Counted from the stretch's first letter, positions 19,516 through 45,643 are shown. The stretch: DNA of 64,000 nt from an uncultured delta proteobacterium (GCA_963707125.1 CAVPOU010000004.1:84241-148240), one strand, 5' to 3'. Numbers and translations are program-made. The notes: generated by a model from the letters alone, not told the origin.

Positions 19516-21849
19516 TTGCTGCAGAAGAAGCACAACAACGTTCTTGATCACATCGGCTGGACGCCTCTTGTGCCCATCCGCCAGTTGAATACCAACCGAA
19601 GCGTTCAGATCCTGGCCAAACTCGAGTCCTTCAACCCCGGAGGCTCCGTGAAAGACAGGCCGGCCTTTTACATGATCGAAGAGGCGGAAAGAACCGGAGA
19701 ACTGACCAAGGACAGGATCATCCTGGAGGCAACGAGCGGCAACACAGGGATCGGGTTGTCTCTTGTGGCCGCCGTCAAGGGCTATCGCATCCTGCTGGTG
19801 ATGTCCGAAGCCGTCAGTGAGGAAAGAAAAAAGATTTTGAAAGCCATGGGGGCGGATCTCCAGTTCACCCCCGCCCACATGGGCACGGATGGATCCATCG
19901 AGTTCGCCTACAACCTGGTCCGAGAAGAAGCGCAGAAGTTCTGGCTTGCAGACCAGTTCAACAACGATGCGAACTGGCTCTCCCACTACCACGGAACAGC
20001 TATGGAGATATGGGAGCAGACCGGCGGCGCCTTGGACATGGTCGTGGCCAGCATGGGCACCACGGGCACCCTCATGGGGCTTGCCCGGCGCTTCAAGGAG
20101 CTCAAGCCCGAGGTCCAGATCATCGGCGTAGAACCTTACATGGGGCACAAGATTCAGGGTCTCAAGAACATGAAAGAGTCCTATCCCCCGGGAATCTACG
20201 ACCGGAAAAGAGCGGACAGGATTATGCATGTCGACGATGGAGAGGCTTTTGAAACCACCAGACTCCTTGCCAAGAAAGAAGGCCTTTTCGTGGGCATGAG
20301 CGCAGGGGCGGCCATGGCCGTTGCTCTCAGGCTCGCTCGAGAAATGAAAGAGGGACGAATCGTCGTCATCCTTCCGGACGGAGGGGAACGCTATCTGAGC
20401 ACTTCTCTTTTCGTGGACAGAAAAACCTCGGGGCTTTGCCTGTACAACACGCTCACGCGGAGAAAGGACGCGTTCGTTCCGATCCAGGAAAACCGGGTCA
20501 GCCTCTACAGCTGCGGGCCCACCCTTTGCCAGCACCTCCACATCGGGCAAGCCCGCCAGCTGGTTTTCTCCGACCTGGTCCGCCGCACCCTCGAGCTCAA
20601 GGGCTACGAGGTCACTCACATTGTGAACGTGACGGACATTGACGACCGAACCATTGAAGGCGCGGAAAAAGAGGGGGTGGACCTCAAAGAGTTTACGGAA
20701 AGGTACTATCAGGAGTTTCTTAAGGACCTGGATTCGCTCCTTGTCAAGAAGGCCACCGCCTATCCCAAAGCGAGCGAGCACATCGAGGATATGATCCAGT
20801 TTTCCGGCAAACTCCTCGACAAAGGGTACGCCTACGAGAAATTCCGCTCCCTCTATTTTGACATCTCCCGGTTCAGAGACTACGGGAGACTCTCCAGAAT
20901 CGACCTGGACAAGATTCACCTGGGGAAAACCGTGGATCTCGAACGATATGAAAAGGGCAATCCCAGGGATTTCACCCTCCTCAAGCGTTCCACCCTGAGC
21001 GAACTCAAGAAGGGCATATTCTTCCAGACCAAGTGGGGAAACGTAAGACCGAGCTGGCACCTCGAGTGCCCGGTCATGGCTCTAAAATTTCTCGGCGACA
21101 CCCATGACATCCACACCGGAGGAGCGGATCTCGTGTTCCCTCACCACGAGAACGCCATCGCCCTCAGCAGGGCAATCACCGGTAAACCGCTTGCCAATTA
21201 CTGGCTGCATCATGAACTGGTCATGGTGGACGGCAAGAAACCGGCCGACGGCAAGGAGAGCGAACACACCACGATCAAGAATCTTCTTAAGAAGGGGTAC
21301 ACCGGGAGAGAAATCAGATACTGGCTCATCAGCCATCATTACAACAAGCCCATCTCCTTTTCTCTGGCTAAGCTGGACAACGCGAAGAAGACTCTTTCCA
21401 ACCTGGACAAGTTCATGAAGAAAGTCTTCTTTTGCCGCTCCGGTGAAACCAACCCTGAAATGGACCAGGTGGTCTACAACCTCAACCACAAGTTTTCCGA
21501 AGCCATGGATGACGATCTCAACACCTCGCAGGCTCTGGCTGCCCTGTTCGAGTTTACCCGTGAAGTGAACCGCATCGTCGATCAGAAGGGACTCTCTCAG
21601 GAAGACAAGCAGCGGGTGAAAGAAGCCCTGGGCGCCGTCAACTCGGTCCTGGAGATCATGGACCTGGACGCGCCCAAGGCGGACGAAGCGATTGAAGCCC
21701 TGATTCAGAAAAGGGAAGCGGCTCGAAAGCCAAGGGACTGGCAAACGGCTGACCGGATTCGCCAAGAGCTCAAGAGGATGGGAATTGAGCTGACGGATAC
21801 CAGGGATGGAACCATGTGGCGGAGAGAATGGGATTCGAACCCGAGGTAG
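19516..21849 (+). CDS. Fusion protein: CysK/CysM-like PLP cysteine synthase (aa ~1-300) + cysteinyl-tRNA-synthetase-like domain with degenerate class I motifs (aa ~305-777)
   Basis: N-terminal half: ..NPGGSVKDRPA..TSGNTGIGL..GTTGT..SAGAA.. C-terminal half is collinear with CysRS (LYNTLTRRKD..YSCGPT..WHLECPVM..FPHHEN..DDDLNTSQALAAL..GTMWRR). It reads HIGQ instead of HIGH and KKPADGKESEH where KMSKS is expected. TTG start is assumed at 19516. Confidence 0.8.
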   Translation: MLQKKHNNVLDHIGWTPLVPIRQLNTNRSVQILAKLESFNPGGSVKDRPAFYMIEEAERTGELTKDRIILEATSGNTGIGLSLVAAVKGYRILLVMSEAVSEERKKILKAMGADLQFTPAHMGTDGSIEFAYNLVREEAQKFWLADQFNNDANWLSHYHGTAMEIWEQTGGALDMVVASMGTTGTLMGLARRFKELKPEVQIIGVEPYMGHKIQGLKNMKESYPPGIYDRKRADRIMHVDDGEAFETTRLLAKKEGLFVGMSAGAAMAVALRLAREMKEGRIVVILPDGGERYLSTSLFVDRKTSGLCLYNTLTRRKDAFVPIQENRVSLYSCGPTLCQHLHIGQARQLVFSDLVRRTLELKGYEVTHIVNVTDIDDRTIEGAEKEGVDLKEFTERYYQEFLKDLDSLLVKKATAYPKASEHIEDMIQFSGKLLDKGYAYEKFRSLYFDISRFRDYGRLSRIDLDKIHLGKTVDLERYEKGNPRDFTLLKRSTLSELKKGIFFQTKWGNVRPSWHLECPVMALKFLGDTHDIHTGGADLVFPHHENAIALSRAITGKPLANYWLHHELVMVDGKKPADGKESEHTTIKNLLKKGYTGREIRYWLISHHYNKPISFSLAKLDNAKKTLSNLDKFMKKVFFCRSGETNPEMDQVVYNLNHKFSEAMDDDLNTSQALAALFEFTREVNRIVDQKGLSQEDKQRVKEALGAVNSVLEIMDLDAPKADEAIEALIQKREAARKPRDWQTADRIRQELKRMGIELTDTRDGTMWRREWDSNPR

Positions 21850-21864
21850 AGGGTTACCCCCTGC
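21817..21864 (-). pseudogene. tRNA-Ser-like 3' fragment (variable arm, T-loop, acceptor 3' strand, CCA); possible attachment-site remnant
   Basis: The - strand reads ..AGGGggtaaCCCTctacctcGGGTTCGAATCCCattctctccgCCA. No matching 5' acceptor strand, D arm or anticodon arm could be found upstream, and the T stem has 2 mismatches. It overlaps the last codons (WRREWDSNPR*) of the CysRS-like ORF. Confidence 0.45.
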
Positions 21865-21891
21865 ACTCGCTTAACATCCGGGTATCATGTC

Positions 21892-22134
21892 ATGCTTTCC
21901 AAAGTAGAGGTTATGGAGACTTCCAGGGGGTGTACGCGTACGTGGTCATTCTGCATCATGAAGCAGATGTATGGGCAGACTTTCCGGACGTATCCCATCG
22001 AACGGGTCTTGGCGGATACAGATGATATTTATTATAACCGCCGGACGGGAGGCGCATTGCGGCCAGGAGGCATTAATCGTTTCGCAATTGAACTGACCTG
22101 GTTCGTAAAATCTCCCCTCGCCCCTCTTTGTTAA
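21892..22134 (+). pseudogene. Fragment of a B12-binding-type radical SAM gene
   Basis: VMETSRGCTRTWSFCIMKQMYGQTFRTYPIERVLADTDDIY resembles the ..SRGCxxxCxFC...R.R....V..E core, but the middle Cys is Trp and both flanks are missing. Confidence 0.35.
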
Positions 22135-22204
22135 AGAGGGACGATCCCTCCCTTTGTAAAAGGGAGGGGAGGAGGGACTGAGCGAACGGCCGCCGGCCCG
22201 CGGA

Positions 22205-22597
22205 TCAGTGCGACCCCTTGGCCGGCTCCGCCGGCACCTGAATGGTTCGGAAGAGAAGCAGCAGCCCGAAGATCAGCGCGAAAATCTCCCCGCCCAAGGT
22301 CAGGATCACCGACATCAGGTTCATCATGTCCACTGCCGACACCCAGGTGGCGACCGCGGCTCCTGCCGTGGTCTGCAAGGTGGGTATGCCCGCCTGCGGG
22401 GCCGACAGGAAATAGAAGAGCAGGGTACCCACCTCGAAGAGCAGCACCAGCATTGAGAAGAGAATGGCGATGCTTGCCGCCATCACCCCGGTGAAACCGG
22501 TTCCGGCTGCAGAAAACTCGGAGCGGCCGTTGAGAGCCTGGAACTGGCTCTCGAAGGACTGATTGCGGGCGCTGAATGGTGGAGGTTCTGGCTCCAC
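22205..22597 (-). CDS. Hypothetical small membrane protein
   Basis: 130-aa ORF with 3 hydrophobic segments; no recognisable family. It lies in a high-GC region where spurious ORFs are common. Confidence 0.35.
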   Translation of the reverse strand: MEPEPPPFSARNQSFESQFQALNGRSEFSAAGTGFTGVMAASIAILFSMLVLLFEVGTLLFYFLSAPQAGIPTLQTTAGAAVATWVSAVDMMNLMSVILTLGGEIFALIFGLLLLFRTIQVPAEPAKGSH

Positions 22598-23218
22598 AGG
22601 CTAGCAGGAGGTCAGACCACGAACCACCCAGCCGCAGGTGATCGGGACTCCCCTAGAACTGAGCGACGATCCGCGGAGGTGGAGGATGTCGTCGACGATC
22701 ACTTGCAGGTGCTGCCGGGTGCTCGGCATCGCCGTTGACCGGGCATCCGCATTCAGGGGCTGAAAGTGATCCCGCGCACGGAGTGGCATGCGGTATCTTT
22801 CGGGCTGTGCTGAACGGTATGGTTGTCTCGCAATGGCGCTCGAGCAAGTGACCGCACTTGCTCAAGGCACCACTGAGACACTCGCTAGAAGCCCCGGCGC
22901 ACCATGACGAGGACCTCGGTCGAGCTGTGGTTGAAGCCGGCGGCGTTGCTCTGGTCGCGCACGAGATGCACCGCCTCGCGCGCGCTCACCCCCTTGCCGT
23001 GCTCGAAGGTCTGCAGCGCCGCGGCAGGCGGCCGGTATCTTCTTTGCTCATGACTTCCCCTCCGGACGTCCCCGCCCTAGCTTGCCAGTCCCGCACCGGC
23101 TGCGCGAAACGCCGGCGCAGATCGTTCGCGATCGGCTCGACCTTCGTGCGGCCGTTCTGGTCGGCGATGCGTGCCTGTCGCCGTGACTACTCCACCGGGA
23201 AACTTCGAGCTTTCCGGA

Positions 23219-23450
23219 CTAGAAGAACAACGTCACGCGGCCGTTGATGATGTAGTCGTAGGTCGCTCCCGAAGGATTGCCGATCTTGGTCGCGCCGCCG
23301 AATGCGAATTCGAGGTTCCGGCTCCAGCGATGGACGAGCAGGAGGTCGAGGACTGGAGGATTGCGCTGGCCGTGCCGGCAACGGACGATACGGTCCGTAG
23401 CGAACGTTAAGCTGAGGAAGGACGACCTTATCCGTGGAAGATAGGTTTGC
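23219..23450 (-). pseudogene. C-terminal remnant of an outer-membrane beta-barrel (porin-like) gene
   Basis: The - strand frame reads ..SLTFATDRIVR..NLEFAFGGATKIGNPSGATYDYIINGRVTLFF*. It has alternating beta-strand character and a terminal Phe. No start codon or N-terminal part is present. Confidence 0.3.
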
Positions 23451-23884
23451 TCCTCTCATCTGTTTGCCCGGCTTTGGTTCTGGTGGCTATGGCGCTAGGA
23501 GGCTAGCCCCACTCCTGTTGCCGCGACTCAGTGGCGTGTCCTGATTGGCACGGATATCGTCGCCGGCCGATCGGCGGTTACTAATGGTCCCACAATTGTC
23601 TTTGCATCGCGAAGCCCCCTCTCACCCTGCCCCTGGTCGCCTTTTACCAGCCTCTGGCTGGCTGGCGCTGCCGAAGGCAGGGATAGGGTGAGGGGGAGCG
23701 CATAGTCAATACTATTTCGAGACGATTAACATCGGAGCATGCAAGTTGGGATTTCCCTATTCGTTGTGTTGTGCTATATTCGTGCGGTAATTCCGGTCTT
23801 CGGACCGGTCCGAAGGCCGGCGTTTCATGTCCGTTCATCCACCCGGCCGGCAATCCGAACTGTCAGAGGCACCCCAGCGATTCT

Positions 23885-24883
23885 ATGAGGCAACGCGTTC
23901 AGATAGGAAGCGCCACCTGGTCATTCCTGAGTTCCCGGGTGCTGCCGTTGCGCCCGGTTCAGCTGGTGATCCAGACCGGCTTGAAATGGGACCGTGACAA
24001 CTGCCCCGGCATGGCCGCGGCCCTTTCCTATTACGCCCTGTTCTCACTTTTCCCGCTGCTTCTGGTCATTCTGAGCATTGTCGGGGCCCTGATCGGCCCT
24101 GAGACGGAGGTATTTGAATACATTCAAAAGCTGATCGTACGGGATCTGCCCCCGGCCGTTCAAGACATGGTGGTGGGGACCATTGTCGCACTTAACGAAA
24201 ACAGCGTGGGTGCCAGCATTGTGGGGTTTAGCCTGCTTTTTTTTACGGCCAGCACCCTGTTTGTGGTTCTGCGCCAGTCGGTGAACATAATCTGGGAATC
24301 CCCCGCCCGCATCTCCGAGGCGGGCTCGATCCCCCGAATGGTGCTCTTCTTCATCCTCAACAAGCTGGTGGCCTACCTGCTGGTGCTGGCGACCGCCTTG
24401 ATCCTGTTGGTGTCTTTCGTGGCGAGCGTTTCCATCGGGGCTGTCATCGAGGTGGTCAACCACTTCCAGAAAAATGTCGCCTTCATCCAGCAGGTGGACG
24501 AACTGCTGCTAACCCGCTGGCTTCAGGTCAGCACTTCGGTCGTCATCCTGAGTGTAACCTTGTGCATTCTCTTCAAACTTCTGCCCACGGTCCGTCCCCG
24601 GTGGCGGGACGTATGGCTGGGGGCCATCCTCACGGCTTTCATGCTCGTCGGGCTGCAGAAGTTGGCCACGGGCGGCGTCGTTTCCGTTTTCGGCAAATTT
24701 CTGTCCTATGGGGCGATCGGCAGCGTTATGATTCTGTTGCTGTGGATCTTCATGGCCTGCCAGATCGTGTTTGTGGGGTGTGAGTTTTCGTATGTTTACG
24801 CGCAGCTTTACGGCAGCCGCCGCGGTAAGGCTCCACCCGCAGAGCGGGTGGCCTCAGGTTGCCCCCTCGAAGGGGGCTCTTGA
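23885..24883 (+). CDS. YihY/BrkB (ribonuclease BN-like) family membrane protein
   Basis: ..WDRDNCPGMAAALSYYALFSLFPLLLVILSIVG.. followed by 5-6 TM segments. The start is set at ATG 23885 within the ORF that opens at 23771. Confidence 0.8.
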   Translation: MRQRVQIGSATWSFLSSRVLPLRPVQLVIQTGLKWDRDNCPGMAAALSYYALFSLFPLLLVILSIVGALIGPETEVFEYIQKLIVRDLPPAVQDMVVGTIVALNENSVGASIVGFSLLFFTASTLFVVLRQSVNIIWESPARISEAGSIPRMVLFFILNKLVAYLLVLATALILLVSFVASVSIGAVIEVVNHFQKNVAFIQQVDELLLTRWLQVSTSVVILSVTLCILFKLLPTVRPRWRDVWLGAILTAFMLVGLQKLATGGVVSVFGKFLSYGAIGSVMILLLWIFMACQIVFVGCEFSYVYAQLYGSRRGKAPPAERVASGCPLEGGS

Positions 24884-25171
24884 TCAGCAGTTTGCCCAAA
24901 TTGCCAAAACACGTCCTCCCCCTTGATGGGGGAGGTCACCCGCCAGGCGGGTAAAGGTGGGGGTGAAAAAAGTGGCTGTGAAATCCCGTCACCATAACCC
25001 CCTCCCCCCGTATCAAGTACGGGGCAGGCTCTAGCCCCTCCCACCAGCCTTCGACGTGCTCACGGTCCCGAGGAAGATCGAGGGAGGGAGGGGAAACGCC
25101 GGATCGGTAGAACCTATCCGGGTCCTCCACCAGAGGTGAGGGTTCAGTCACAACCAAGCGGGCCGGGTGGA

Positions 25172-26138
25172 TTACCGCCGGGCCGTAATGCGCTGCCCGT
25201 CCGGGGTGTGCAGCACCAGGCGCCCCTGCGGACCGATCTCGAAGCGATGGGTTTTCTGGAGCAGCTCCAGGAAGCGCATCTCCTGGCGGCTCAACGGCTC
25301 CTCGCAGGCCATCTTCGTGCCGGCCATCTGCCCGAACGAAAGCCCCTCTCCGGTCAGGCGGAAGCTGCCCGTGAATCGGTTGCACGAGGCGTTGCCGGCC
25401 ACGCGGCCCTCCTCCAAAAAGAGGATCGTCGCCTTGGATTTTTCCGCCACCGGCACACCGTCGATGGTCTCCACGATCCACTCCAGCCCGGTGAGAAGAT
25501 TCCGGGGGTCGCCGCCGCAGCCTGCGTGCGCCTTGCCGTCGAGCTCGTAGCGCACCCGATAGGGGTGGGGCATCCCGGTGGCGACATCGGCGCAGATCTC
25601 CGGCCGGAGGGTGACCGCCAGGCGGCGGCCCTCGGCCGCGGTCCGGTAGAGGAAGCCCTCGGCGGTCGTTAGAGGTTCGGTTTTCGGCATGCGGAGCTGC
25701 AGGGCTCCGAAGTCGGCGTTGAGGAAGATCGCGTCGGCATCGATCGTGATCATCCAGCCGGGCTCCTGGCCGCGGGCGGTGAAGGGCAGGTCGGGCTCCC
25801 GCAGGGCGCGACACTCGGGAAGCTCCCGGCCGCGCACGGTCACCAGGGCCAGATCGCCCTTGCTCCAGAAACCGGTGGCGGTGTCCGTCGACGGCCGTAT
25901 AGCGGGCGCCGGAGGCCGATACGGCGGTTTTCAGGTCAAAGGATTCACCGGCAACGTTCATCCGCGCACGCCCCTCCGGTGCATTGAAGATGACCGGCGT
26001 GGTCCCGCACAGGTAGAGGATTTTGTCCGGGATCACCGGCTGTGCGCTCTTGTCCTGTCCGGTCCGGTCCGGGTGAATGCAGCCCGAGGCAAGCGCCGCA
26101 AAAGCCGCAAAAGCCGCCGCTACAAGCTTTTTGTTCAT
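25172..26138 (-). pseudogene. Lipoprotein with MliC-like and META (HslJ-like) domains, one frameshift near 25883-25890
   Basis: AGGAGG lies before ATG 26138. The lipobox is LASGC. ..LYLCGTTPVIF..SASGARYTAVD continues in another frame as TDTATGFWSKGDLALV.. (ORF 25172..25843), which contains NRFTGSFRLTGEGLSFGQMAGTKMAC. Confidence 0.7.
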
Positions 26139-26184
26139 ATAGTTCCTCCTTTCCCGGAGCCGGCACCGCCGCTGCGTGATTTGC

Positions 26185-26667
26185 CTATCCCTGGAGTACC
26201 TCCCGCAGCCGCTGCTCATCGTCGAGGGCAAGCGACGTCTTCAGGACTTTGCCTTTGAAACCTTGCAGGCGTTCCAGCACCTTGTCCTCCGTGGCCTGGC
26301 GAAAGAGCACGAACAGGACCGAAGCGCCGGGAGTGAAGTCCTTGCTGAACTCCTTCATGAACTTGTCGTCGATGCCGATGTCCGTCAGCTTGCCGCTCAG
26401 CGCACCGGCGGCGGCGCCCACGGCGGCGCCCAGCAGGGGATTGAGAAAGAGAACGCCGATGAGCATGCCCCAGAAGCTGCCGCTCACGGTTCCCGTCAAG
26501 GTCAGGTCGACCGCCTGATGCAGCTTCACCTTGCCCTTTTCATCCTTGGTGACCACGACAACGTCCTTCATGTCGATCAGATACTCTTTCTGCATCTTGG
26601 CCAATTCCGCCCGCACAGCAAAAGCGGTGTGCTCGTCGTGAAACTCGATCGCTACTAAGTCAGACAT
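26185..26667 (-). CDS. DUF1269-family membrane protein
   Basis: 160 aa. MSDLVAIEFHDEHTAFAVRAEL..KDVVVVTKDEKGKVKLHQ..Gly-zipper TM..GIDDKFMKEF is the typical pattern. Confidence 0.85.
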   Translation of the reverse strand: MSDLVAIEFHDEHTAFAVRAELAKMQKEYLIDMKDVVVVTKDEKGKVKLHQAVDLTLTGTVSGSFWGMLIGVLFLNPLLGAAVGAAAGALSGKLTDIGIDDKFMKEFSKDFTPGASVLFVLFRQATEDKVLERLQGFKGKVLKTSLALDDEQRLREVLQG

Positions 26668-26745
26668 AAAGACCTCCTTCGATGGGTTTAAATGGTTGGT
26701 GTCACGGTGCTGGTTCCAAAAACCCCATGAACACTAGGGACAGTG

Positions 26746-26832
26746 AAGCTCGTAGCGCACCCGACGGGGGTGGGGCCTTCCGGCGGCGACATCGGCGCAG
26801 ATTTCCGGCCGCATGCCGACCGCCAGGCGGCG
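26746..26832. repeat. ~87-bp diverged duplicate of an internal segment (25541-25630) of the MliC/META gene
   Basis: gaagctcgtagcgcacccgacgggggtgggg..ggcgacatcggcgcagat.tccggcc..gaccgccaggcggcg aligns with 25541-25630 with scattered substitutions. On the - strand it would encode ..RPEICADVAAGRPHPRRVRYEL. Confidence 0.6.
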
Positions 26833-26948
26833 TTCAGTCCCTCCTTTCCCCCGTCTTGCGCGAGACGGCGAAATTTCCTGTACCGGATTGCCGGTTTCTT
26901 ACTATCCCTGCCGGCCTCGGAGCAGCCGCTGACCCGACTCGCCGTGGG

Positions 26949-27512
26949 CTACAGATCGAGCCGTGTGATGCGCGCGCCGTCCAGCGAGATGCCCGCCATG
27001 AGCCCGCGGTTGGAAAGCACGTAACCGATGACGGGCTGCTGCGCCGTAGCCGTGGTCACCTGCGCGCTCGCGCCCACCGAGATCAAGGTCACCGATGCAT
27101 CGGCGCCCACCGTCCAGCCCGAGCTGTTCTGGAACTGCCTCAGCGCGTCGTCCGTCATGAACAGCAAAAAGACCGCCGTCGACTGGGCGCCGGCCTGCAG
27201 GCCGAACGATCCGCTCGTCGTGGCGTGGTAGCTCTTTGTCTTGCCGCCGATGCGCAGCGCTCCCTGGCCGCGCGAGGCGCCGACGATGAACCCGGCCTCC
27301 ATCACGGACGGGAACACCAGCACGCCCCGGGCGCGGCCCACCAACTGCTCCGATCCCTCGACCTGCCCATAGAGCCTGGCGAGCGCATTGTCGACTTCGG
27401 CATCGATGCTGCGGCGCCTCGTGTCAGGGTCGCCAGAACTCGGGCCGGTGGTGGTGCAGCCGAAGGCGAGCACCAGGAAAACGGCCAGAACAGATAGAAT
27501 TCGTTTGTTCAT
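26949..27512 (-). CDS. SYLF (Ysc84-like, DUF500) domain lipoprotein
   Basis: Lipobox LAFGC. ..ARGVLVFPSVMEAGFIVGASRGQGAL..GSFGLQAGAQS..GWTVGADASV..GLMAGISLDGARI matches the family pattern. Confidence 0.85.
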   Translation of the reverse strand: MNKRILSVLAVFLVLAFGCTTTGPSSGDPDTRRRSIDAEVDNALARLYGQVEGSEQLVGRARGVLVFPSVMEAGFIVGASRGQGALRIGGKTKSYHATTSGSFGLQAGAQSTAVFLLFMTDDALRQFQNSSGWTVGADASVTLISVGASAQVTTATAQQPVIGYVLSNRGLMAGISLDGARITRLDL

Positions 27513-27565
27513 TCAATGTCCTCCTTGTTTTAAATTTGTTTGGAACTGGATCAATTGATGTAACA

Positions 27566-27709
27566 AGATTTGTGCCAAGAGGGTCGACAGGCCAATTATT
27601 GACACAATCAATTGATATGATTTGATATTTATAGACGAACCAGATTTCGCGATCCGGAAGGCCATGGGCCGGTTTTCGTGGGATGCAGAGGAAGCGTTAA
27701 ATATCACGG
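27566..27709. repeat. ~145-bp non-coding repeat, copy 1 (second copy at 56156-56299)
   Basis: atttgtgccaagag.gtcgacaggcc.attattgacacaat.aattgatatgatttgatatt....gat.ccggaagg..atgg.ccggttttcgtgg.atg.agaggaagcgttaaatatcacgg is shared by both copies, roughly 85-90% identical by eye. Confidence 0.75.
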
Positions 27710-27761
27710 AAATTCTCACCGGCCTCGGCCACAAAGTCGAGGATCGCCTGCCGCCGCCGGT

Positions 27762-29057
27762 TCAGCGTTTCTTCGCGCGCCGTACATAAGACCCCACCCG
27801 GCCGATCTGCAACTGCCACCAGCCGAACGTTTCGGTGAGCCACTTGTAAACGGCGGCGCCGACCAGCGTGCCGAGAGCGACCGAGGTGATCACAAACACC
27901 ACCATGACCAGGCCTTCGAGCCCGGCAGCGCGGTCGCTCAGCATGCGCGTGACGCTCAGCAGGCCCAAGGCGCCCGGTACCAGCAGCCAGAAGGCGGGCA
28001 GGAAGGTCACGGTTGCCGGCGGACCGCGGAAGCGGAGCTGAATCAGGTAGCCCAGCGGTGTGGCCACCAGCGTGCCGAAGAACCCGCTGATCTCGCACCC
28101 CAAAAACCCTCCCGCGAGCCGCTGCGCCGCAAAGGCGATCAGCAGCACCAGGAGAATCCAGTGCAGGGAATTTCGCGGCGCCGAGAAGTGAAGATAAACT
28201 CCCAGGCCGAACACCAAGACGCCGGCCCAGGCGGCCTCCACTATTTTCACGTAATGCGCGGCGGAGTAGGTCAGGTCGTTGGGGCTGTAGCCGACGAGCA
28301 CGGCGCCCACCGCGAGACCGAACGCCAGCAGCACCAGTTGCACGAAGCCGGCGATCAGGCGGCTTGCGCCGCTCACCATGTCGCCGTAGGCGAGCTCCAC
28401 CATGCCGAGTGCGAGCATGCCGCCCGGCAGGAAGGTTATCAGCGGCGGCACCAGCGCGTGCAGGGGATCCACCGGCAGTCCATACTTCACTGCGAGGAAA
28501 ACGAGCGCGGAGACAAGCGCCGCGGCGATCACCGGCAGCGGCACCGCCTGCACGGCGCGCCCGCGGTTGGACAGTTTCACCGCGCCCACGATGAAACCAA
28601 GCCCTGCCGCCGCCGCCAGGTTGGCGGCCGTCGGCATCAGCACCATCGCCAGGCCGACGGTTAGAATCGTGTGGCCCACGACGATCCCGGCGGCACCGAA
28701 GCGCGCCTTCTGCGCCAGGATCGCCGAGAGCCGCTGCAGGCCCTCGCCCGGCGCCACCTCCGCTTTCTGGGCCGCCTCGCCCAACGCGTAAATGCCGCCG
28801 ATCTGGTCCAGTCGCAGCGTCTGCGGTTCGCATTGGACCAGGGTCACGCGCTCGCCTGCTTCGTCATGAATCGAAATGAACAGGGCGGTGGGAAACGCCA
28901 CGGCGCGCGACTTGCGCATCCCGTAGGCCGAGGCCGTGCGGCGCAGGATCAGCTCCACCTTCGCCGTCTGCTCGCCGCACGCTATGTAGGCCTGCCCCAG
29001 CCGGAACATGAACTCGATCAAAGTCGCCGTGTCGGGCGCCGTGGATTCTTTCTTCAC
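27762..29057 (-). CDS. Threonine/serine exporter (ThrE) family membrane protein
   Basis: 431 aa with a GTG start. N-terminal regulatory-like part (..FMFRLGQAYIACGEQTAKVELILRRTASAYG..) followed by ~10 TM segments, the typical ThrE (DUF1212+DUF3815) layout. Confidence 0.8.
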   Translation of the reverse strand: MKKESTAPDTATLIEFMFRLGQAYIACGEQTAKVELILRRTASAYGMRKSRAVAFPTALFISIHDEAGERVTLVQCEPQTLRLDQIGGIYALGEAAQKAEVAPGEGLQRLSAILAQKARFGAAGIVVGHTILTVGLAMVLMPTAANLAAAAGLGFIVGAVKLSNRGRAVQAVPLPVIAAALVSALVFLAVKYGLPVDPLHALVPPLITFLPGGMLALGMVELAYGDMVSGASRLIAGFVQLVLLAFGLAVGAVLVGYSPNDLTYSAAHYVKIVEAAWAGVLVFGLGVYLHFSAPRNSLHWILLVLLIAFAAQRLAGGFLGCEISGFFGTLVATPLGYLIQLRFRGPPATVTFLPAFWLLVPGALGLLSVTRMLSDRAAGLEGLVMVVFVITSVALGTLVGAAVYKWLTETFGWWQLQIGRVGSYVRRAKKR

Positions 29058-29096
29058 ATGAATGGTCCCAAAATGGTCTTTACATCGCGAAGCCGC

Positions 29097-30309
29097 CTAT
29101 TCCTGGGTCGCCAGCGCCACGGCCAAGCGGCAGCCCTTGAGGTACTCCGGCACGTTCACGTACTCCTTGACGGTGTGGACCTCGGCCTGTCCCGAGCCGA
29201 AGGTCACCGTCGGCACGCCGTGCTTGACCAGCCAGTTGGCATCGAGGCCTCCGTTCGAGCTGATGACCTCGGGCGTCATCCCGAGCGACTCGACCGCGCG
29301 CCGGGCATACTGCACCGCCGGCGATTTCTCGTCGAGCTTGAAGGGCGGATAGGACGGCTGTGCATCGAACTTGACCTCGGCCATCTCGCCGTCCGAGTTT
29401 TTCACGGCTTCCCGCGCCTTCATGAACGCGTCGCGGTAGCCCGCCGCGATTTTGCCGGCGAACGCGGCATCGTGGCTGCGTGCTTCGCCGGTAATGTGGA
29501 CGTAATCGGTGACGACGTTGGTGGCGTCGCCGGCTGCCTTGCGGTCCTTGCCGCCGAACACGCCCACGTTACTGGTCCCCGCGCCCTCGGGCTTCGTGAC
29601 CTTGCCGAACCAGCCGGCGCGATGCGCTTCGGCGAGTGCGATCGATCCGACGAGCGTGGCGGATATCCCCTTTTCCGGGGCCACTCCGGCGTGCGACGCC
29701 TTGCCCTTGATCTCCGCCTCCCAGTTTTCCTGGCCGACGGCGGCGATGAGCAGCATGTTCGCGTGGGTGGTGTCCACGTTGAAGCACATCCGGCGCTCCC
29801 CCGAGGTCCTTGGGGTCGAGCTCGCGGGCCCCGTGGATCCCGCTCTCCTCGCGGACCGTGAAGAGCAGGGTGAGCGGCGGATGCGGCAGCTTGTGCTTCA
29901 GCAGCGTCTCGACCATGGCGACGATCACCGCGCACCCCGTGCGCGCATCGCTGCCGAGCGCGGTGCTGCCGTCGGTCACGATCCGGTCCCCCTGGCGCAT
30001 CGGTTTGGCGCCGGCACAGAGCGCGACCGTATCCAGGTGGCTCGAGAACAGCAGCCTGTCTCCCTTCCGCGTCCCGGGAAGCTCCACGATCAGATTGCCG
30101 GTCTGCGTGGGCAGCGGGATCTTCTTGTGGACGTTGTCGAACCGGATGGCCGCCGCCGGCACCCCGACTTTCTGAAGTGCGTCCGCGACCGCCTCTGCGA
30201 TCGCCTTTTCCTCGCCGGTGATGCCTTCCACCGTCAGAAAGTTCATCAGGTGCGCTTCAGCGGCACTCACGTCCAGCGGCATGTCTTTCATCGCATTCTC
30301 CTTTAACAT
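29097..30309 (-). pseudogene. M20/M42-type metallopeptidase, one frameshift near 29795-29802
   Basis: The N-terminal piece (ORF 29569..30309: ..LLFSSHLDTV..GSDARTGCAV..FTVREESGIHGAREL..) continues in another frame (ORF 29097..29789: ..FNVDTTHANML..ASHAGVAPEKGIS..). The junction is at a C5/G5 run. Confidence 0.75.
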
Positions 30310-30410
30310 TATTGTTTTTGTCTAACAGTTTAGCTCTTTGAAATGGATGGCCTTTTTCTGTGTTTATTTCAAAGAGCTAAACTGTTACGTTTTTGTTATT
30401 CCGGCCGGCG

Positions 30411-31956
30411 CTAAAAGCCCCACGGCAGACCGAGCAGGTACCAGACGGCAAACAGACCCGTCCACGCAACGGTCATCCACACCGCGTAGGGCAGGAGCAG
30501 CGCCACCACAGTGCCGATGCCGGTGTTTTTGGCGTACTTCTGTGCAAACCCGACGACCAGCGCGAAATAGGCATTGAGCGGCGTCAGCGTGTTGGTCGGC
30601 GAGTCGCCGACGCGATACGCCGACAACACGGCCGCGGGGTCCACATTCAGGGTCACGAAGAGCGGCACGAAGACCGGCGCGAAGATCGCCCACTTGGCGA
30701 TCGCGGGCGTGAACACAATGTTCAACGCGGTGACCACGAGGATGAACCCCAGGAGCATCCAGATCGAGCCGATATTCGCGGCTTTGAGGGCGTCGGCCAT
30801 CGTCACCGCCATCAGCGTCGGCAGGTTGCTGTAGTTGAAATAGGCGATGAACTGGCTGATGACCAAAAACAGCAGGATGCGTTCCGCCGAGCCCGCTGAT
30901 CGCTTTGGTCATGGCGCCGATGACGTCGGCGCTGCTCTTCATCGTGGCGGCCCCGATGCCGTAAGCGACGCCGGCCGCGAGGAACACGAACATGATCGCG
31001 ACGATCAGCCCGTTCATGAACGGTGAGTTGCCGATCAGCGCGCCGGTTTCCGGATTTCGCAGCGGAGCGCCGGACGGCAGGGTCAGGAGCCCGAAAATCC
31101 CTAGCACCAGAACCAGAGCGACCGCGGCAAAGGCGAGACCGCGCCACTCGGCGGCCGCCAGGCTGGAGCCCTGCGCGGCTGGCTCAGTGCCCTCGGCGTG
31201 ACTCGGATCAAACTTGCCCAGCCGCGGCGAGATGACGCGATCGGTGACCAGCGCGATCACGATCACGAGCAGTGGCACCGAAACGATCGAAAACAACAGA
31301 CCGGAGGTTAGTTCGATCGTTCGCGTCGGGTCCACCATGCGGATCGCGTCGTTGGTCAGTTCGGTCAGCACCGCGTCCAGCGGCTTGATGAGCATGTTGA
31401 CGTTGAAGGCGCCGGCCACCGCTGCGAACCCCAGCGCGATGCCCGCCAGCGGGTGCCGGCCGAGGCTGAGGAACGCGGCGCCGGCCAGCGGGATCAGGAC
31501 CACATAGCCGGCATCTGCGGCAATGCTGGAGAGCACGCCGACGAAGGCCAGCAGGTACGTGATCGACCAGGCCGGCGCGACCGCCACGATCATGCGGATC
31601 AGGGCCTTGATGAGTCCGGCTTCCTCGGCCACGCCGACGCCCACCATCGCCACGACGAGGAGCCCGATCGCGGCGAACCCCATGAAGTTGGGCACCAACC
31701 GGACGTAAATGTCGCGGATCCCGCTCGCCGTGGCGAGGCTGCGCGCCTGCGTCGTAGCGGTCTCGATCGCGTGCGTCTCCGGATTGATCACCTGGTAGGT
31801 GACGCTCGCGCCGGTCGCTTCCAGAATGAAGGAGAGGACGATGACAAACCCAATCAGGATCAGGAAGATGATCACCGGATGCGGGACCCGGTTGCCGACT
31901 TGCTCGACGGTGTCCAGGAACCGCTGCATCATCGATTTGGGTGCTCTGGAGGTCAC
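30411..31956 (-). pseudogene. AbgT-family (p-aminobenzoyl-glutamate/dipeptide) transporter, one frameshift near 30875-30887
   Basis: ORF 30385..31956 is AbgT-like (..FLDTVEQVGNRVPHPVIIF..) up to ..AMTKAISGLGG. It then continues as ILLFLVISQFIAYFNYSNL.. in ORF 30411..30866. Confidence 0.75.
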
Positions 31957-32070
31957 AGCTCCTCGTCAGATGGGCATCGATATAAGAGAGTCCTCCGGAG
32001 AAGGACCGATATCGGCTCGCGCCGGGAGACTCCATAACCCCGTTTGAAACTGCAAGCGGTCGCAGCGGCG

Positions 32071-33052
32071 TTAGTGATACGGCGCGAACGCCGCGGCAAC
32101 GTCGGCGCCTTTTCCGCCGCGCATGACGAGGCCGAGCAGCAGCCGCGCCTTGAGGCCCGAGAGGCAGCCCGCGGACACGACACCGCGCTTGATCAGGTCG
32201 ATTTCCGCTCCGGGATAGCCGTAGGTGCGGGTGAAGACATGGCCCGTCATGGCACGGCTCGCGAGCACCACCGGTATTTTGGCCGCCAGGTCGCCGACGA
32301 TGGGAGCCACGTCCGCATGCACGTGGCCGGCGCCCATCCCCTCGATCACCACCCCCGCGTAGCCCAGGCCGGGCAGCGATCCGAACAGGCGCCCGTCGTC
32401 GCCCATGGCGGCCTTGATGAGCGCCACCGGTGCGGGCGGGCCCTCTGCGGCCGGCAGGGTGGGGTTGCGCGTCACGCGCACATAGAAGCGCGGCTGCCGT
32501 TCGATGAGGGTGCCGATCGGCCCGACCAGCGGCGAGAGAAACGCCGAGGGCAGGGCGGTGTGCGATTTTTGAACGAAACGCGCCGCATGAATGTCGTAGT
32601 TGAGGACCGCGAGCGTTCCGAGGCCGCGCGACTCCGGGCATGCGGCGACGATGGCCGCCGACAAGAGATTGGCGGGCCCGTCCGCGCCCGGTGCATCGGC
32701 GCCGCGCATGGCGCCCGTGACGACCACCGGCTTGTCGGAGTCGACGAGGAGATCGAGCAGGAACGCCGATTCCTCGATGGTGTCGGTGCCCTGGATCACC
32801 ACCGCGGCGTCGAACCCGGAAGCGAACGCCTCCCGGATCGTGCTCGGCGACTTCGACCAGGTTCGCCGGGGTGAGCGAGGGGCTGGGCAGGCGGAAGGGC
32901 GACCGCGCGTCGATGTCTCCGACTTCGGCGAGCGCGGGCACCGACGCCACCAGCTCGGCGGCGCCCAGTTTGGGGGTGATGCCGCCCGAATCGCTCGGGA
33001 CCATGGTGATCGTCCCGCCGAGCGAGAGAACGAGAAGACGGGGTTTGTTCAT
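32071..33052 (-). pseudogene. L-asparaginase (type I-like), one frameshift near 32845-32857
   Basis: MNKPRLLVLSLGGTITM.. (start 33052) runs to ..TPANLVEVA. It then continues in another frame as STIREAFASGFDAAVVIQGTDTIEESAF.. (ORF 32071..32802). Confidence 0.75.
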
Positions 33053-33071
33053 GGCGTCATCGTCCTTTCCG

Positions 33072-34727
33072 TTAATCTTCACGCTTCGGTTTGGGCGGCG
33101 GCGGATTCGCCGGGATCTCGCCCGGCTTGTAGTCGGGCAGCCGGCCGGCCGGGAAGATCGCCAGCAGGGAAAGCGCCGCCATGATCAGGAGGCCGATCTT
33201 GAGCGCCCGAAGCCGTGCTTCCTCGTTGATGCGCACCGCCTCCTTGATTTTCTCCGGGGGGATGCTGGTGCGCTCCAGGGCCGTCTTCAGCCGTTCATTG
33301 CTCACGAAGGTGATGTTGTTGTCCAGGTCGATCTGGGTCTGGAGCTCCGTTTTCAGTTCCGGGTGCTGGGTCAGCGACGCGAGGATGAAGGCGCTCAACA
33401 GGCCGACGAGCAGCGCGCCCGAGACGGCCGTGCCGACGGCGGCGGCGAGGTTGTTGGTCGTCCCGCGCAGCGAGCCGACGTCACCGGCCAGTTCCTTGGG
33501 CGAGGCGGTGACGAGCACGTTGAACAACAGCGTCACGAGCGACCCCTGGCCGATGCCGAACAGGATCAGCCCGATCATGACGACCGGTGCGCCCCAATCG
33601 TTGCGCACGACCCACGCGAGCCACAGCAGCGCGACCGTGCAGAGGACGAAGCCAGAGCGTCCGATCTGCCGCGGCGTGAGCTTTTGGTAGAGCTTGATGA
33701 TCAGCATCGCCGTGAAGAATACGGTGAGATTGAACGGCATCATCGCGATGGCCGTCTCGATCGGCGAGCGGCCCTGGATGATCTGGATATACAGCGGCAC
33801 GGAGAAGTTGAGCGCGCCCTCCAGCGCGACGACGGCGAACATCGCGTAGACCGCGGCCCGTTCGGAGGCGGAGGCGACCACCTCCAGGGCGAGCAGCGGC
33901 GTCTTTCCGGACGCCGTGCGCCGGCGCGTCCAGACGATGAAGGCCTGCAGCAGCACGATGCCGACCACGATCATGAACGGGGCGGGCGACATGCCGAGCA
34001 GGTCGAACGGAGCGGCAGGGCGCGCGAGACCGAGTCCCCACCGGTTCAGGTTGTTGAAGCCGAAGCTGATGAGGATGATCGCCGCGGCCGTCAGCAGCAC
34101 GCCGAACAGATCGATCTGCACTTCGGGCCGGCCCTTGGCCGGCTTGAGCTTGAAACTCAGGAGGAAGACCAGCGCGGAGACCGCGATCAGGATGGCGAAC
34201 GCAGGCCGCCAGCCGATGTAGGTGCCCAGCACGCCGCCGATCACGAAGGCCAGCACCCCGGCGCCCGCGCGCGCCGAACCGAGGGCGCCGAGCGCGGCGG
34301 CCTGCTGCTCGCCGTGGTACTCGTTGGCGATCAGCGCGACGAGCGAGGGGACCAGCGCAGCGCCCGCGAGGCCGCTCAGGAGCTGGGCGGTCGGCATGAG
34401 GTTGGCGGTCGGACTGAAGGTCATCAGCACCTGAGCCCCTCCGAACAGGATCACCACGGCGCGGAAGATGACCACGGCCCCGAACCGTTGGTTCAACTTG
34501 GCGCCGAGCATGACGAAGCCCGCCACGGCGAGCGAATACATCACGATCCCGGTGGCGACCGTGGTCGGCGGCACGTTGAAACTGTTCACCATGCCGCTCA
34601 GCGCGACCGGCAGCGAGGCCACATTGAAAGACATGATCGCCTGGCCGAAGGCGATGGCGATCATCGGCACCCAGGATTCCCGTTGTCCGGTCTGAGAGCC
34701 GGGCAGTGCATCGGTCTTGGTGGTCAT
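33072..34727 (-). CDS. MFS transporter, 14-TMS drug:H+ antiporter (DHA2/EmrB-like)
   Basis: The start at ATG 34727 has AGGAGA upstream. ~14 hydrophobic segments and a C-terminal hydrophilic tail. Confidence 0.8.
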   Translation of the reverse strand: MTTKTDALPGSQTGQRESWVPMIAIAFGQAIMSFNVASLPVALSGMVNSFNVPPTTVATGIVMYSLAVAGFVMLGAKLNQRFGAVVIFRAVVILFGGAQVLMTFSPTANLMPTAQLLSGLAGAALVPSLVALIANEYHGEQQAAALGALGSARAGAGVLAFVIGGVLGTYIGWRPAFAILIAVSALVFLLSFKLKPAKGRPEVQIDLFGVLLTAAAIILISFGFNNLNRWGLGLARPAAPFDLLGMSPAPFMIVVGIVLLQAFIVWTRRRTASGKTPLLALEVVASASERAAVYAMFAVVALEGALNFSVPLYIQIIQGRSPIETAIAMMPFNLTVFFTAMLIIKLYQKLTPRQIGRSGFVLCTVALLWLAWVVRNDWGAPVVMIGLILFGIGQGSLVTLLFNVLVTASPKELAGDVGSLRGTTNNLAAAVGTAVSGALLVGLLSAFILASLTQHPELKTELQTQIDLDNNITFVSNERLKTALERTSIPPEKIKEAVRINEEARLRALKIGLLIMAALSLLAIFPAGRLPDYKPGEIPANPPPPKPKRED

Positions 34728-34818
34728 GGCATTTATTCTCCTTTCTTGCGTTCGGTTCCTGTTTTCTCGGGCGCCATGCGTGCGGCGCACCGAGGGGTAT
34801 GGGTTCCGGCCGTGCAGA

Positions 34819-35823: not shown

Positions 35824-36140
35824 GCCAGCCTCCTTTCACGGCACCGTTTAAGAAACGATAGAACTTTGCAGATTGGTGGATGCAGCAGGGGAAACCGTAC
35901 AGAAAATTTTTATTTTTATAATTACTTCCGATCTAGATGTCAAGGATTTTTCTAGGTGCAAAAAGAATGTTAAACTTTTCAAAATCCTCTTGCGCTAGTG
36001 ATTATTCTCTGTTAATTGTTCCAATTTTGACGGACAAGTATCATTTTAACAGCTCGTCTACAAGACCCTCAAACCGAAGAGGCTCAGAACAGTCGAAACC
36101 GGCTGGGACCCCATGCCCCGGCACTCCTGAAAGGCAGCCC

Positions 36141-37319: not shown

Positions 37320-37324
37320 CGGCC

Positions 37325-40300: not shown

Positions 40301-40488
40301 GCGCCGCGGCCCGCACGTCTTTGGGCACCGCCGTCGTTGCCGGCATGGCCACCGCCACCGTGCTGAGCCTCTTTTTTATTCCGGTGCTTTACTACGCGGT
40401 TCAGACCCTGGTGGAGAAGATCAAGGGGCGCCCGCAGGTTCCCATCGACCTGACGGCGGCGGCATCGCGGCCGGCCGGCGAGCCGTGA
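37325..40488 (+). pseudogene. RND (AcrB/HAE1-type) inner-membrane efflux pump, one frameshift near 37694-37704
   Basis: ORF 37325..37735 (MVKYFIHRPVFAIVIGLIILIAG..) and ORF 37729..40488 are collinear with AcrB. ..PPEVMNS|GISVRKASPDMLMVLSLFSP is restored by a 1-nt shift. Confidence 0.8.
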
Positions 40489-40499
40489 AGGGGGATGTC

Positions 40500-41961: not shown

Positions 41962-41993
41962 CCGGTGCTGCCGGCCGACCGCATAGCGTTGGT

Positions 41994-42299
41994 CGTTGGG
42001 GGTCGGGCCGCGGCAAGTCCTTGATAATGAGATGAATAGTGCTGAGTCGAACCCCTGAATCCGGCCAATAGTGCATTTTTTGAGGCCAAAAAGCCCTTAT
42101 TGCTGAGAGTCCATGGCCAGAGCAAAACGACATTATGTTCCGGGCTACATTTGGCATATCACCCATCGATGCCATAAACGAGAATTCCTGACTATAAGCC
42201 TCTTTTCAAGGATGAAAACGAGGATATAGGTTTGGAAAACGCCCACCTCTGGGACCTTAATGCCGAATAATCAAGCACATGCCGTGGCCCGCCCCCCCC
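41994..42299 (+). mobile_element. 306-bp miniature element derived from a Y1 (IS200/RAYT-like) transposase gene, copy 1
   Basis: TIRs GGGGTCGGGCCGCGGCA / TGCCGTGGCCCGCCCCCC. The interior keeps only the first ~26 codons MARAKRHYVPGYIWHITHRCHKREFL, then a stop. Confidence 0.6.
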
Positions 42300-42485: not shown

Positions 42486-42494
42486 CCCTCCCGC

Positions 42495-45618: not shown

Positions 45619-45643
45619 GTGTCCGCCTCCTTCAAACTGATTA

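What the first reader, a model, noticed from the sequence alone, without database searches (positions are those of the whole stretch)
21817..23770. Abrupt compositional boundary at a tRNA-Ser-like 3' fragment, followed by ~2 kb of gene debris
**Composition change.** Left of ~21.85 kb the sequence is around 50% GC, with long clean ORFs. Right of it, most of the remaining 42 kb is visibly much more GC-rich, and both strands carry long shadow ORFs.

**The junction.** It coincides with a minus-strand tRNA-Ser-like 3' portion at 21817-21864 (variable-arm hairpin AGGG-ggtaa-CCCT, GGTTCGAATCC T-loop, TTCTCTCCGCCA acceptor end). This piece lacks any 5' half. That is the form expected for the duplicated attachment site left by an element integrated into a tRNA gene.

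**Overlap with the CysRS-like ORF.** The fragment also supplies the last codons of that ORF (..GTMWRR-EWDSNPR*), so the natural stop may have been replaced.

**Debris that follows.**
- a radical SAM fragment with the middle Cys mutated (21892-22134)
- CCCTC/GAGGG palindromes
- a 5'-less porin C-terminus (23219-23450)
- other short frame-broken peptide-like stretches (22870-23160)

No integrase is visible in the window.
Basis: partly seen in the sequence, partly recalled or inferred. Interest (0 to 1): 0.65.

Follow-up and report, generated by a model that had tools for sequence, protein, structure and literature searches.

The report
Decayed genomic island at tRNA-Ser gene
A sulfate-reducer-type genome carries at least 42 kb of foreign, GC-rich, partly broken DNA inserted into a serine tRNA gene, leaving only the last 60 bases of that gene; this is a well-documented but ordinary genomic island.

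Summary
Bases 21817-21876 (minus strand) are the 3' 60 nt of tRNA-Ser(GCU), from the anticodon loop to CCA. They sit exactly where relatives carry the intact gene, followed by tRNA-Ser(UGA) and rpe-rsmB-fmt-def. Three independent contigs (L001, L134, L135) bridge the same cysS/relic/radical-SAM-fragment junction, so it is not an assembly chimera. Close relatives L094 and L106 (96-98% identical flank) have the intact tRNA, so the insertion is polymorphic.

- **Composition:** DNA right of the relic differs in GC (0.59-0.65 against 0.52) and in tetranucleotide usage for all remaining 42 kb.
- **Decay:** it holds pseudogenes whose intact counterparts occur on 65% GC metagenome contigs.
- **Debris:** the 2 kb after the relic is deletional decay. 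Sister contigs keep longer versions of each remnant.

- The GC step lies about 300 nt right of the relic.
- The overlap of cysS with the tRNA, and its stop codon, are ancestral.
- Mosaic flanks show the occupied allele spread between lineages by homologous recombination.

No integrase or second tRNA copy is in the window, so the far end is unseen. This is a new member of a known kind.

The parts
19516..21849 (+). Host gene: a fusion of a CysK-like PLP enzyme with a CysRS-like domain. Its last 11 codons and its stop codon are antisense to the tRNA-Ser relic.
   Evidence: Pfam gives PALP at residues 10-288 and tRNA-synt_1e, DALR_2 and CysS_C at 320-769. The same tail and stop occur in relatives with an intact tRNA.
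21817..21876 (-). Relic of tRNA-Ser(GCU): anticodon loop to CCA, with no 5' half. 21817-21829 is of the window's own host type (CCCAT). 21830-21842 is the T loop, the switch interval. 21843-21876 is the arm shared by all occupied alleles (variable arm GCAGGGGGTAACCC).
   Evidence: ARAGORN and Rfam give no call here.
21877..22134 (+). Remnant of a B12-binding radical SAM gene. It lacks about 190 N-terminal codons, and the middle Cys of CxxxCxxC is Trp. Homology stops at a deletion junction at 22039-22049.
   Evidence: L081 keeps 2.66 kb more at this junction.
22109..22179 (-). Two adjacent CCCTC/GAGGG hairpins just downstream of the DUF3611 stop codon. They are probably a terminator or a REP-like element.
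   Evidence: Fold of -54.3 kcal/mol, z=-5.46. 98.6% identical in L001.
22205..22493 (-). 3' half of a DUF3611 gene. ORF 22205-22597 adds an unrelated N-terminus.
   Evidence: Pfam matches DUF3611 profile positions 99-173 of 175. An intact 204-aa gene is in L001. Truncation points differ in L081/L082, L083 and L134.
22494..23502 (.). Non-coding debris. It includes a frame-broken small ORF at about 22885-23055 (-) and the last 44 codons (23219-23351, -) of a 283-aa gene that is intact in L081.
   Evidence: L083 lacks 22530-23690 and L134 lacks 22479-23162.
23503..23770 (+). Region upstream of the BrkB gene. In L126 the same sequence abuts a tRNA-Phe 3' fragment. 23581-23730 is a 150-nt insert absent from L126.
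23771..41986 (.). GC-rich block (0.646). Genes: BrkB/YihY, MliC-META, DUF1269, Ysc84, ThrE, M20 peptidase, AbgT, asparaginase, MFS, glutaminase, and HlyD/AcrB/OEP efflux. Several are broken.
   Evidence: Pfam. Colinear at 88-90% with the intact operon in L128. The window carries 1-nt insertions at 29790, 30878 and 32844.
41987..45094 (.). Low-GC (0.51) module bracketed by 313-nt direct repeats (41987-42298 and 44784-45094). It carries a weak AbiEi-like match (E=0.0011, below Pfam's cut-off) and a PIN-domain gene.
45095..64000 (.). Further DNA of the same compositional type. Genes: DUF202, sulfatase, LigT/HAD (duplicated), CitMHS, and three DUF1254/DUF1214 paralogues. It runs off the window with no tRNA or integrase.

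Best explanation
**What it is.** The window comes from a Desulfobacterota genome of about 52% GC; its closest relatives are MAGs labelled Desulfobacteraceae, delta proteobacterium and Desulfatiglandales. In this group the core order is tRNA-Phe, GroES/EL, cysK-cysS, then on the opposite strand tRNA-Ser(GCU), tRNA-Ser(UGA) and rpe-rsmB-fmt-def. In the window's lineage a large foreign element is inserted into tRNA-Ser(GCU).

**What is left of the tRNA.** The original 3' part of the gene, from the anticodon loop to CCA, was displaced. It remains next to cysS as a 60-nt relic.

**Inferred origin.** The insertion was most likely made by a tyrosine integrase crossing over in the anticodon loop. If so, the element's own copy of the tRNA 3' part regenerates a working gene at the far end, which lies beyond the window.

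**Present state.** The element is at least 42 kb of GC-rich accessory genes and is no longer a tidy mobile element.
- Its tRNA-proximal end has been eroded by nested deletions. That erosion is the 2 kb of debris.
- Several cargo genes carry frameshifts.
- Small repeats have invaded it.

**How it spread.** The occupied allele passed between host lineages passively. Homologous recombination in the flanking cysS gene carried it across, which also left the relic in the window with a mismatched T stem.
For: **Shown**
1. Orthologous position. An intact tRNA-Ser(GCU) lies right after cysK-cysS in L002, L004, L006, L018, L020, L025 and L026, and in L094, L095, L097, L103, L106, L110, L120 and L121. 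In most of these it is followed by tRNA-Ser(UGA). L002 continues with rpe, rsmB, fmt and def.
2. Homology between the window and L002 stops at 21876, inside the anticodon loop.
3. The same junction occurs in independent assemblies:
   - L001 (SPAdes co-assembly), colinear over window 19494-22529
   - L134 (Logan), 19511-22478
   - L135 (MEGAHIT k141), 20756-22199
   - L081 and L082 cover the island side.
4. The site is polymorphic. Over the last 1075 nt of cysS, L134 is 97.7% identical to the empty-site contig L094 but only 95.0% identical to the window. L001 (occupied) is 95.7% identical to L126 (empty).
5. The island end is far less diverged than the host flank. Window against L001 is 87.8% on the left (2052/2337) and 98.0% on the right (639/652), Fisher p=2e-18. 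Window against L134 and L135 is 99.7% on the right.
6. Flanks are mosaic. L134 and L135 carry 110-170 nt of L001/L126-type cysS sequence next to the relic. The window carries such a tract at 21528-21699, then its own cluster's type at 21720-21829.
7. All 36 intact tRNA copies examined have the variable arm TGTAGGGGGTAAACC and a compensated T stem. All four occupied alleles share GCAGGGGGTAACCC.
8. Composition is foreign. The nearest named relatives of the glutaminase are Candidatus Contendobacter, at 88% aa. An intact counterpart operon lies on 65% GC contigs. The frameshifts are single-base insertions outside homopolymers.
9. Integrase genes (PF00589) sit against the 3' end of tRNA-Ser(GCU) in other metagenome contigs: L105, L113 and L122.

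**From the literature**
Integration into a tDNA splits the gene, the island restores it, and a displaced fragment marks the other end. The anticodon loop is one of three recognised crossover subsites (PMC4383910).
Against: - No integrase, no second copy of the tRNA segment and no intact tRNA-Ser are present in the 42 kb to the right. The island's far end, and so its status as one bounded element, is unproven.
- The DNA directly fused to the anticodon-loop breakpoint is a 5'-truncated radical SAM pseudogene. That is not what a pristine element end looks like, so at least one further deletion must be assumed.
- Part of the same GC-rich DNA (23503-25627) abuts a tRNA-Phe fragment in L126. The tract may therefore be a mosaic of several elements.
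- No reads were available to check the window's own assembly.
Confidence: 0.8

Rival explanations
1. It is the same kind of island, but each host lineage acquired it by its own integrase-mediated integration. The crossover would lie in the T loop or T/acceptor junction, and the 37-nt tRNA-like arm (21843-21876) would belong to the element's attP.
For: - The junction is identical in two host clusters that differ by 10-12% in cysS, while the island end differs by 2-3%.
- In the window the switch from host-type to shared-type sequence falls within the 13-nt T-loop segment 21830-21842.
- The T loop is a recognised crossover subsite.
Against: - L134 and L135 carry 110-170 nt of donor-type cysS sequence next to the relic, and the window has a donor-type tract at 21528-21699. 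Site-specific integration would not bring in flanking host sequence.
- The switch point differs between the window (T loop) and L134/L135 (3' of the T stem). A fixed integrase crossover would not vary.
- No integrase is linked to this element.
Confidence: 0.1
2. No mobile element is involved. A chromosomal rearrangement or deletion happened to break inside the tRNA gene and inside a radical SAM gene, joining two native regions.
For: - The sequence fused to the breakpoint is a truncated gene, as expected of an illegitimate join.
- The gene families of the right-hand tract (DUF3611, DUF1269, BrkB, Ysc84, META) recur together on related contigs.
- The nearest named DUF3611 relatives are Desulfobacterota.
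Against: - An illegitimate join would not be polymorphic with the identical junction in two host clusters.
- It would not be 98-100% conserved next to a flank that is 88-95% conserved.
- Neither the radical SAM gene nor DUF3611 lies within 10 kb of cysS in any of 80 relatives.
- Loss of the only tRNA reading AGY codons would be lethal unless the gene is regenerated (general knowledge).
- Composition differs over 42 kb.
- tRNA-Phe fragments in L002 and L126 break in the anticodon loop in the same way.
Confidence: 0.07
3. It is an assembly chimera that joins a 52% GC genome to a 65% GC genome at a conserved tRNA sequence.
For: - There is a sharp change in GC and k-mer usage.
- No repeat family crosses the boundary.
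- The source contig was not found in the public collections.
Against: - Three other contigs, from different data sets and assemblers, bridge the same junction in register. These are L001, L134 and L135; L135 was built with k=141.
- The sequence shared between an intact host tRNA and the relic is at most 13-26 nt exact, too short to mislead an assembler.
- L126 independently links the core block to the GC-rich DNA at another tRNA fragment.
Confidence: 0.02

Closest known systems
Genomic islands integrated into tRNA/tmRNA genes, as catalogued by Islander (Hudson, Lau and Williams 2015, PMC4383910)
   Same: - A displaced 3' tDNA fragment lies in the correct orientation next to the original downstream flank.
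- The fragment starts in the anticodon loop, which is the 'A' crossover subsite.
- Composition is foreign and the cargo is accessory genes.
- Strains differ in presence or absence.
   Different: - No integrase gene and no regenerated tRNA lie within 42 kb.
- The proximal end is eroded.
- The tract is larger and more decayed than a typical active island.
- It appears to spread by flank homologous recombination rather than by its own integrase.
Degenerate or 'anchored' islands that have lost mobility functions. This class is cited from general knowledge of pathogenicity and fitness islands and was not tested here.
   Same: - An att relic is retained.
- Cargo genes are pseudogenised.
- Small repeats and a toxin-antitoxin-like module (PIN domain, weak AbiEi-like match) have invaded.
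- Closely related strains carry different deletion variants.
   Different: The host is an uncultured sulfate-reducer-type lineage. The cargo is amino-acid catabolism and transport plus an RND efflux pump, not virulence genes.
tRNA pseudogene formed by in-situ decay
   Same: tRNA finders do not call it. It carries substitutions never seen in functional copies: two in the variable arm and an uncompensated T stem.
   Different: The 5' 34 nt are not decayed. They are absent and replaced by unrelated DNA at a sharp breakpoint.

Membership tests
tDNA-targeting genomic island (integrative element, Islander criteria) | A displaced fragment of the target tRNA gene, in the same orientation as the gene, at one end | tested here: met
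   Window 21817-21876 (-) matches tRNA positions 35/38-94 at the orthologous place of the intact gene.
tDNA-targeting genomic island (integrative element, Islander criteria) | A regenerated, intact copy of the same tRNA gene at the other end | tested here: not met
   tRNA-Phe is the only tRNA in the window, and there is no second tRNA-Ser segment. The other end may lie beyond base 64000, which these tools cannot reach.
tDNA-targeting genomic island (integrative element, Islander criteria) | A tyrosine integrase gene (PF00589) inside the island | tested here: not met
   Pfam on the main ORFs and tblastn with four integrases find none in the window. Integrases do abut tRNA-Ser(GCU) in L105, L113 and L122.
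tDNA-targeting genomic island (integrative element, Islander criteria) | An empty target site in close relatives | tested here: met
   L094 and L106 (96-98% identical cysS) and L126 have the intact tRNA directly after cysS.
tDNA-targeting genomic island (integrative element, Islander criteria) | Composition unlike the host, and horizontal history | tested here: met
   - GC is 0.59-0.65 against 0.52, and tetranucleotide r is 0.70-0.72.
- The island end is 98% identical where the flank is 88%.
- The glutaminase is nearest to Candidatus Contendobacter.
Functional tRNA-Ser gene | A complete cloverleaf with acceptor 5' strand, D arm and anticodon | tested here: not met
   ARAGORN and Rfam make no call. 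The 5' 34 nt are absent, and the T stem is TCGGG/CCCAT, which is uncompensated.
B12-binding radical SAM enzyme (fragment 21892-22049) | A CxxxCxxC cluster motif and an N-terminal B12-binding domain | tested here: not met
   The window has CTRTWSFC where the homologue has CTRTCNFC. The roughly 190 N-terminal residues are missing. The homologues are PF02310+PF04055. It is a pseudogene.
Assembly chimera | The junction is unsupported by independent data | tested here: not met
   L001, L134 and L135 bridge the junction, and L081 and L082 cover the island side. Reads from the source sample are not available.

The most novel reading that the evidence does not exclude
The right-hand 42 kb may not be one island. 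It may be a pool of decaying GC-rich modules with three properties:
- They sit at either of the two tRNA hot spots (tRNA-Phe and tRNA-Ser) that bracket the same 8.5-kb core block.
- They exchange pieces between those sites. The BrkB block abuts a tRNA-Phe relic in L126 and lies near the tRNA-Ser relic here.
- They cross species boundaries in Desulfobacterota by homologous recombination in the flanking core genes, without an integrase of their own.
Probability: 0.25. Interest if true: 0.45.

Novelty: new member of a known kind. Interest (0 to 1): 0.3.

Why it matters
- **For annotation.** A 60-nt stretch that tRNA finders miss is a reliable island boundary. The 2 kb that follow should be annotated as pseudogenes, not genes.
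- **For biology.** This is a clear example from uncultured sulfate-reducer-type bacteria of what happens to an island after it loses mobility. It is eroded by nested deletions that differ between near-identical strains. Its cargo frameshifts. Yet the allele still moves between lineages by recombination in the flanks.

None of this challenges current understanding.

Tried and rejected
- **Exact-protein look-ups.** Look-ups for the 777-aa, 370-aa and 80-aa window ORFs found nothing. The source contig is apparently not in that collection.
- **Viral contigs.** Scanning for the occupied-allele arm gave no hit.
- **Pfam on the radical SAM fragment.** It gave nothing, even on a version reconstructed from L081. 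The identity of the fragment was obtained only through phmmer against representative proteins.
- **Simple local deletion.** tblastn of the radical SAM fragment and DUF3611 against 80 cysS neighbourhoods found them only in L001. A local deletion is rejected.
- **Integrase crossover in the T loop.** I first read the mismatched T stem and the 88%-to-98% identity step as proof of this. The site-by-site comparison and contigs L134 and L135 show co-transferred flank tracts and a variable switch point. I now attribute the window's chimeric T stem to later homologous recombination.
- **Repeats linking left and right.** I first took a 32-nt inverted match (11409/45102) as a link between the two halves. 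A blastn self-comparison finds no repeat family crossing the boundary at E<=1e-4, so that argument is dropped.
- **Frameshifts as sequencing errors.** The three gene-breaking indels in the glutaminase-ThrE operon are single-base insertions outside homopolymers. Real mutations are more likely, but this cannot be proven without reads.

Full report
**What is in the sequence**

ARAGORN and Rfam find a single tRNA in the window, tRNA-Phe at 13335-13410, and nothing at the reported site. The reverse complement of 21817-21876 nevertheless reads TG(t)TAAGCGAG TGCAGGGGGTAACCCTCTACC TCGGGTTCGAATCCCAT TCTCTCCGCCA. blastn aligns 21817-21873 to positions 38-94 of intact tRNA-Ser(GCU) genes at 93% identity, E=1e-18. 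No other part of the window matches either serine tRNA.

ORF 19516-21849 is a fusion of a CysK-like PLP enzyme and a CysRS-like domain. Its last 11 codons and its stop lie on the opposite strand of the fragment.

GC by segment:
- 0.519 left of the fragment
- 0.504 in the next 256 nt
- 0.62-0.65 from 22.2 to 42.0 kb
- 0.51 at 42.0-45.1 kb
- 0.59 to the end of the window

Tetranucleotide usage of the left 22 kb correlates at only 0.70-0.72 with the two right-hand regions. Those two correlate at 0.88 with each other. The fragment is 60 nt rather than 48, and the GC rise begins about 300 nt to its right.

**The fragment is the in-place remnant of a real gene**

I searched one genome per species for relatives of the fusion protein and obtained 80 loci, nearly all Desulfobacterota MAGs. 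In seven of the eighteen I scanned, an intact tRNA-Ser(GCU) follows the gene on the opposite strand, then tRNA-Ser(UGA). In L002 (92% aa identity, a 1-Mb contig) the tRNA overlaps the end of the ORF just as the fragment does here. Downstream of it come rpe, rsmB, fmt and def.

Nucleotide homology between the window and L002 runs from 13364 to 21876 and stops inside the anticodon loop. The protein tail ...DSNPR* or ...DSNPW*, and the TAG stop inside the tRNA's variable arm, are also present in relatives with the intact tRNA.

**It is not an assembly artefact, and the site is polymorphic**

Three other contigs from different data sets bridge cysS, the relic and the radical SAM fragment in the same register:
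- L001, a SPAdes co-assembly
- L134, a Logan assembly of SRR9616610
- L135, a MEGAHIT k141 assembly

L081 and L082 cover the island side.

A metagenome scan for the intact tRNA found L094 and L106, whose cysS flank is 96-98% identical to the window's. Both carry the complete tRNA directly after cysS. Over the last 1075 nt of cysS, the occupied contig L134 is closer to the empty L094 (97.7%) than to the window (95.0%). In a second host cluster, L001 (occupied) is 95.7% identical to L126 (empty).

**The inserted DNA has its own history**

- Window against L001 is 87.8% identical over 2337 nt of coding flank. It is 98.0% identical over the 652 nt to the right, which are pseudogene and non-coding sequence (Fisher p=2e-18).
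- Within the window's own cluster the right side is 99.7-100% identical, against 95-98.5% for the flank.
- All 36 intact copies of the tRNA that I extracted have the variable arm TGTAGGGGGTAAACC and a compensated T stem. All four occupied alleles share GCAGGGGGTAACCC.

**How the allele spread**

A site-by-site comparison shows mosaic flanks.
- L134 and L135 carry 110-170 nt of L001/L126-type cysS sequence right next to the relic.
- The window has such a tract at 21528-21699. It then returns to its own cluster's type at 21720-21829 and switches to the shared arm within the T loop (21830-21842).

Three different left breakpoints, with donor flank co-transferred, point to homologous recombination rather than repeated integrase action. 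This pattern also explains the window's uncompensated T stem (TCGGG/CCCAT). I had first read that T stem as an integrase crossover, and I withdrew that reading.

**The debris**

Each remnant has a longer counterpart in a sister contig.
- Radical SAM piece: it aligns to residues 190-241 of 470-550-aa B12-binding radical SAM proteins, with Trp in place of the middle cluster cysteine. L081 keeps 2.66 kb more at a deletion junction at 22039-22049.
- DUF3611: the gene is intact in L001 (204 aa). It is cut at four different points in the window, L081/L082, L083 and L134.
- 23219-23351: this is the end of a 283-aa gene that is intact in L081. That protein has no Pfam match, so calling it a porin rests only on the C-terminal ...TLFF.
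- The two hairpins at 22109-22179 are very stable (z=-5.5). They lie just after the DUF3611 stop codon.

**The cargo**

Window 27757-35837 is colinear at 88-90% with an intact operon on 65% GC contigs (L128-L130): glutaminase, MFS, asparaginase, AbgT, M20 peptidase and ThrE. In the window, single-base insertions at 29790, 30878 and 32844, none of them in homopolymers, break three of those genes. AcrB, the outer-membrane efflux protein and MliC-META are also split.

The nearest named relatives of the glutaminase are Candidatus Contendobacter, at 88% aa. The nearest named relatives of DUF3611 are Desulfobacterota. The tract is therefore itself a mosaic.

**What is missing**

The window contains no integrase, no second tRNA-Ser segment and no intact tRNA-Ser. 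The far end therefore lies beyond base 64000 or has been lost. Integrase genes do abut the 3' end of tRNA-Ser(GCU) in L105, L113 and L122, so the site is used by integrases in this group.

The published principle is that integration splits a tDNA, the island regenerates it, and the displaced fragment marks the other end, with the anticodon loop as one crossover subsite (PMC4383910). What is seen here fits that principle. The integrase step itself is inferred, not shown.

**Verdict**

This is a decayed genomic island, or island array, at tRNA-Ser(GCU). It is a new member of a known kind.

Noticed in passing
window 19516-21849 (+): The host gene is a fusion of a CysK-like PLP enzyme with a CysRS-like domain, and it is widespread in Desulfobacterota and some Planctomycetota (80 loci). 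The class I synthetase signature motifs are altered, and the alteration is conserved: HIGQ in place of HIGH, and KPADGKES in place of KMSKS. The zinc and cysteine-binding residues are kept. It may not be a standard CysRS.
   Followed up: partly
window 13335-13410; L002 4244-4290; L126 about 7990-8057: tRNA-Phe is intact in the window. L002 and L126 keep only its anticodon-loop-to-3'-end portion at that spot, next to other inserted DNA. This is a second island hot spot on the other side of the same 8.5-kb core block.
   Followed up: partly
window 23503-25627 and 26747-26881; L126 8076-10097: The BrkB/META part of the GC-rich tract is 92-95% identical to DNA that directly abuts the tRNA-Phe fragment in L126, in the same outward orientation. 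The same module is thus attached to two different tRNA relics in two lineages.
   Followed up: partly
window 41987-42298 and 44784-45094: 313-nt direct repeats (95% identical, each with terminal inverted repeats) bracket a 2.5-kb low-GC module. The module carries a weak AbiEi-like match (E=0.0011, below Pfam's cut-off) and a PIN-domain gene. It looks like a small insertion inside the island.
   Followed up: no
window 14842-15001, 15630-15789, 19319-19471: A 160-nt repeat family occurs only in the left (host) part of the window. No repeat family is shared across the 21.9-kb boundary.
   Followed up: partly
window 30309-30392 and 23581-23730: Two small inserts are absent from sister contigs. One is 84 nt with a perfect 22-nt inverted repeat, lying between the M20 peptidase and AbgT genes. 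The other is 150 nt upstream of BrkB, with a partial copy at 29061-29098.
   Followed up: partly
window 48022-49482 and 62540-64000: A 1.46-kb duplication (97.3% identical) covers a LigT/HAD gene, with the copies 14.5 kb apart. Three DUF1254/DUF1214 paralogues lie at 57969-62466.
   Followed up: no
window 21820-21874 (+): Rfam family RF04351 (plastid psbI-rps4 3'UTR) matches at E=0.0012, below its gathering score. The match is the antisense of a tRNA-Ser 3' half and not a real member of that family.
   Followed up: yes
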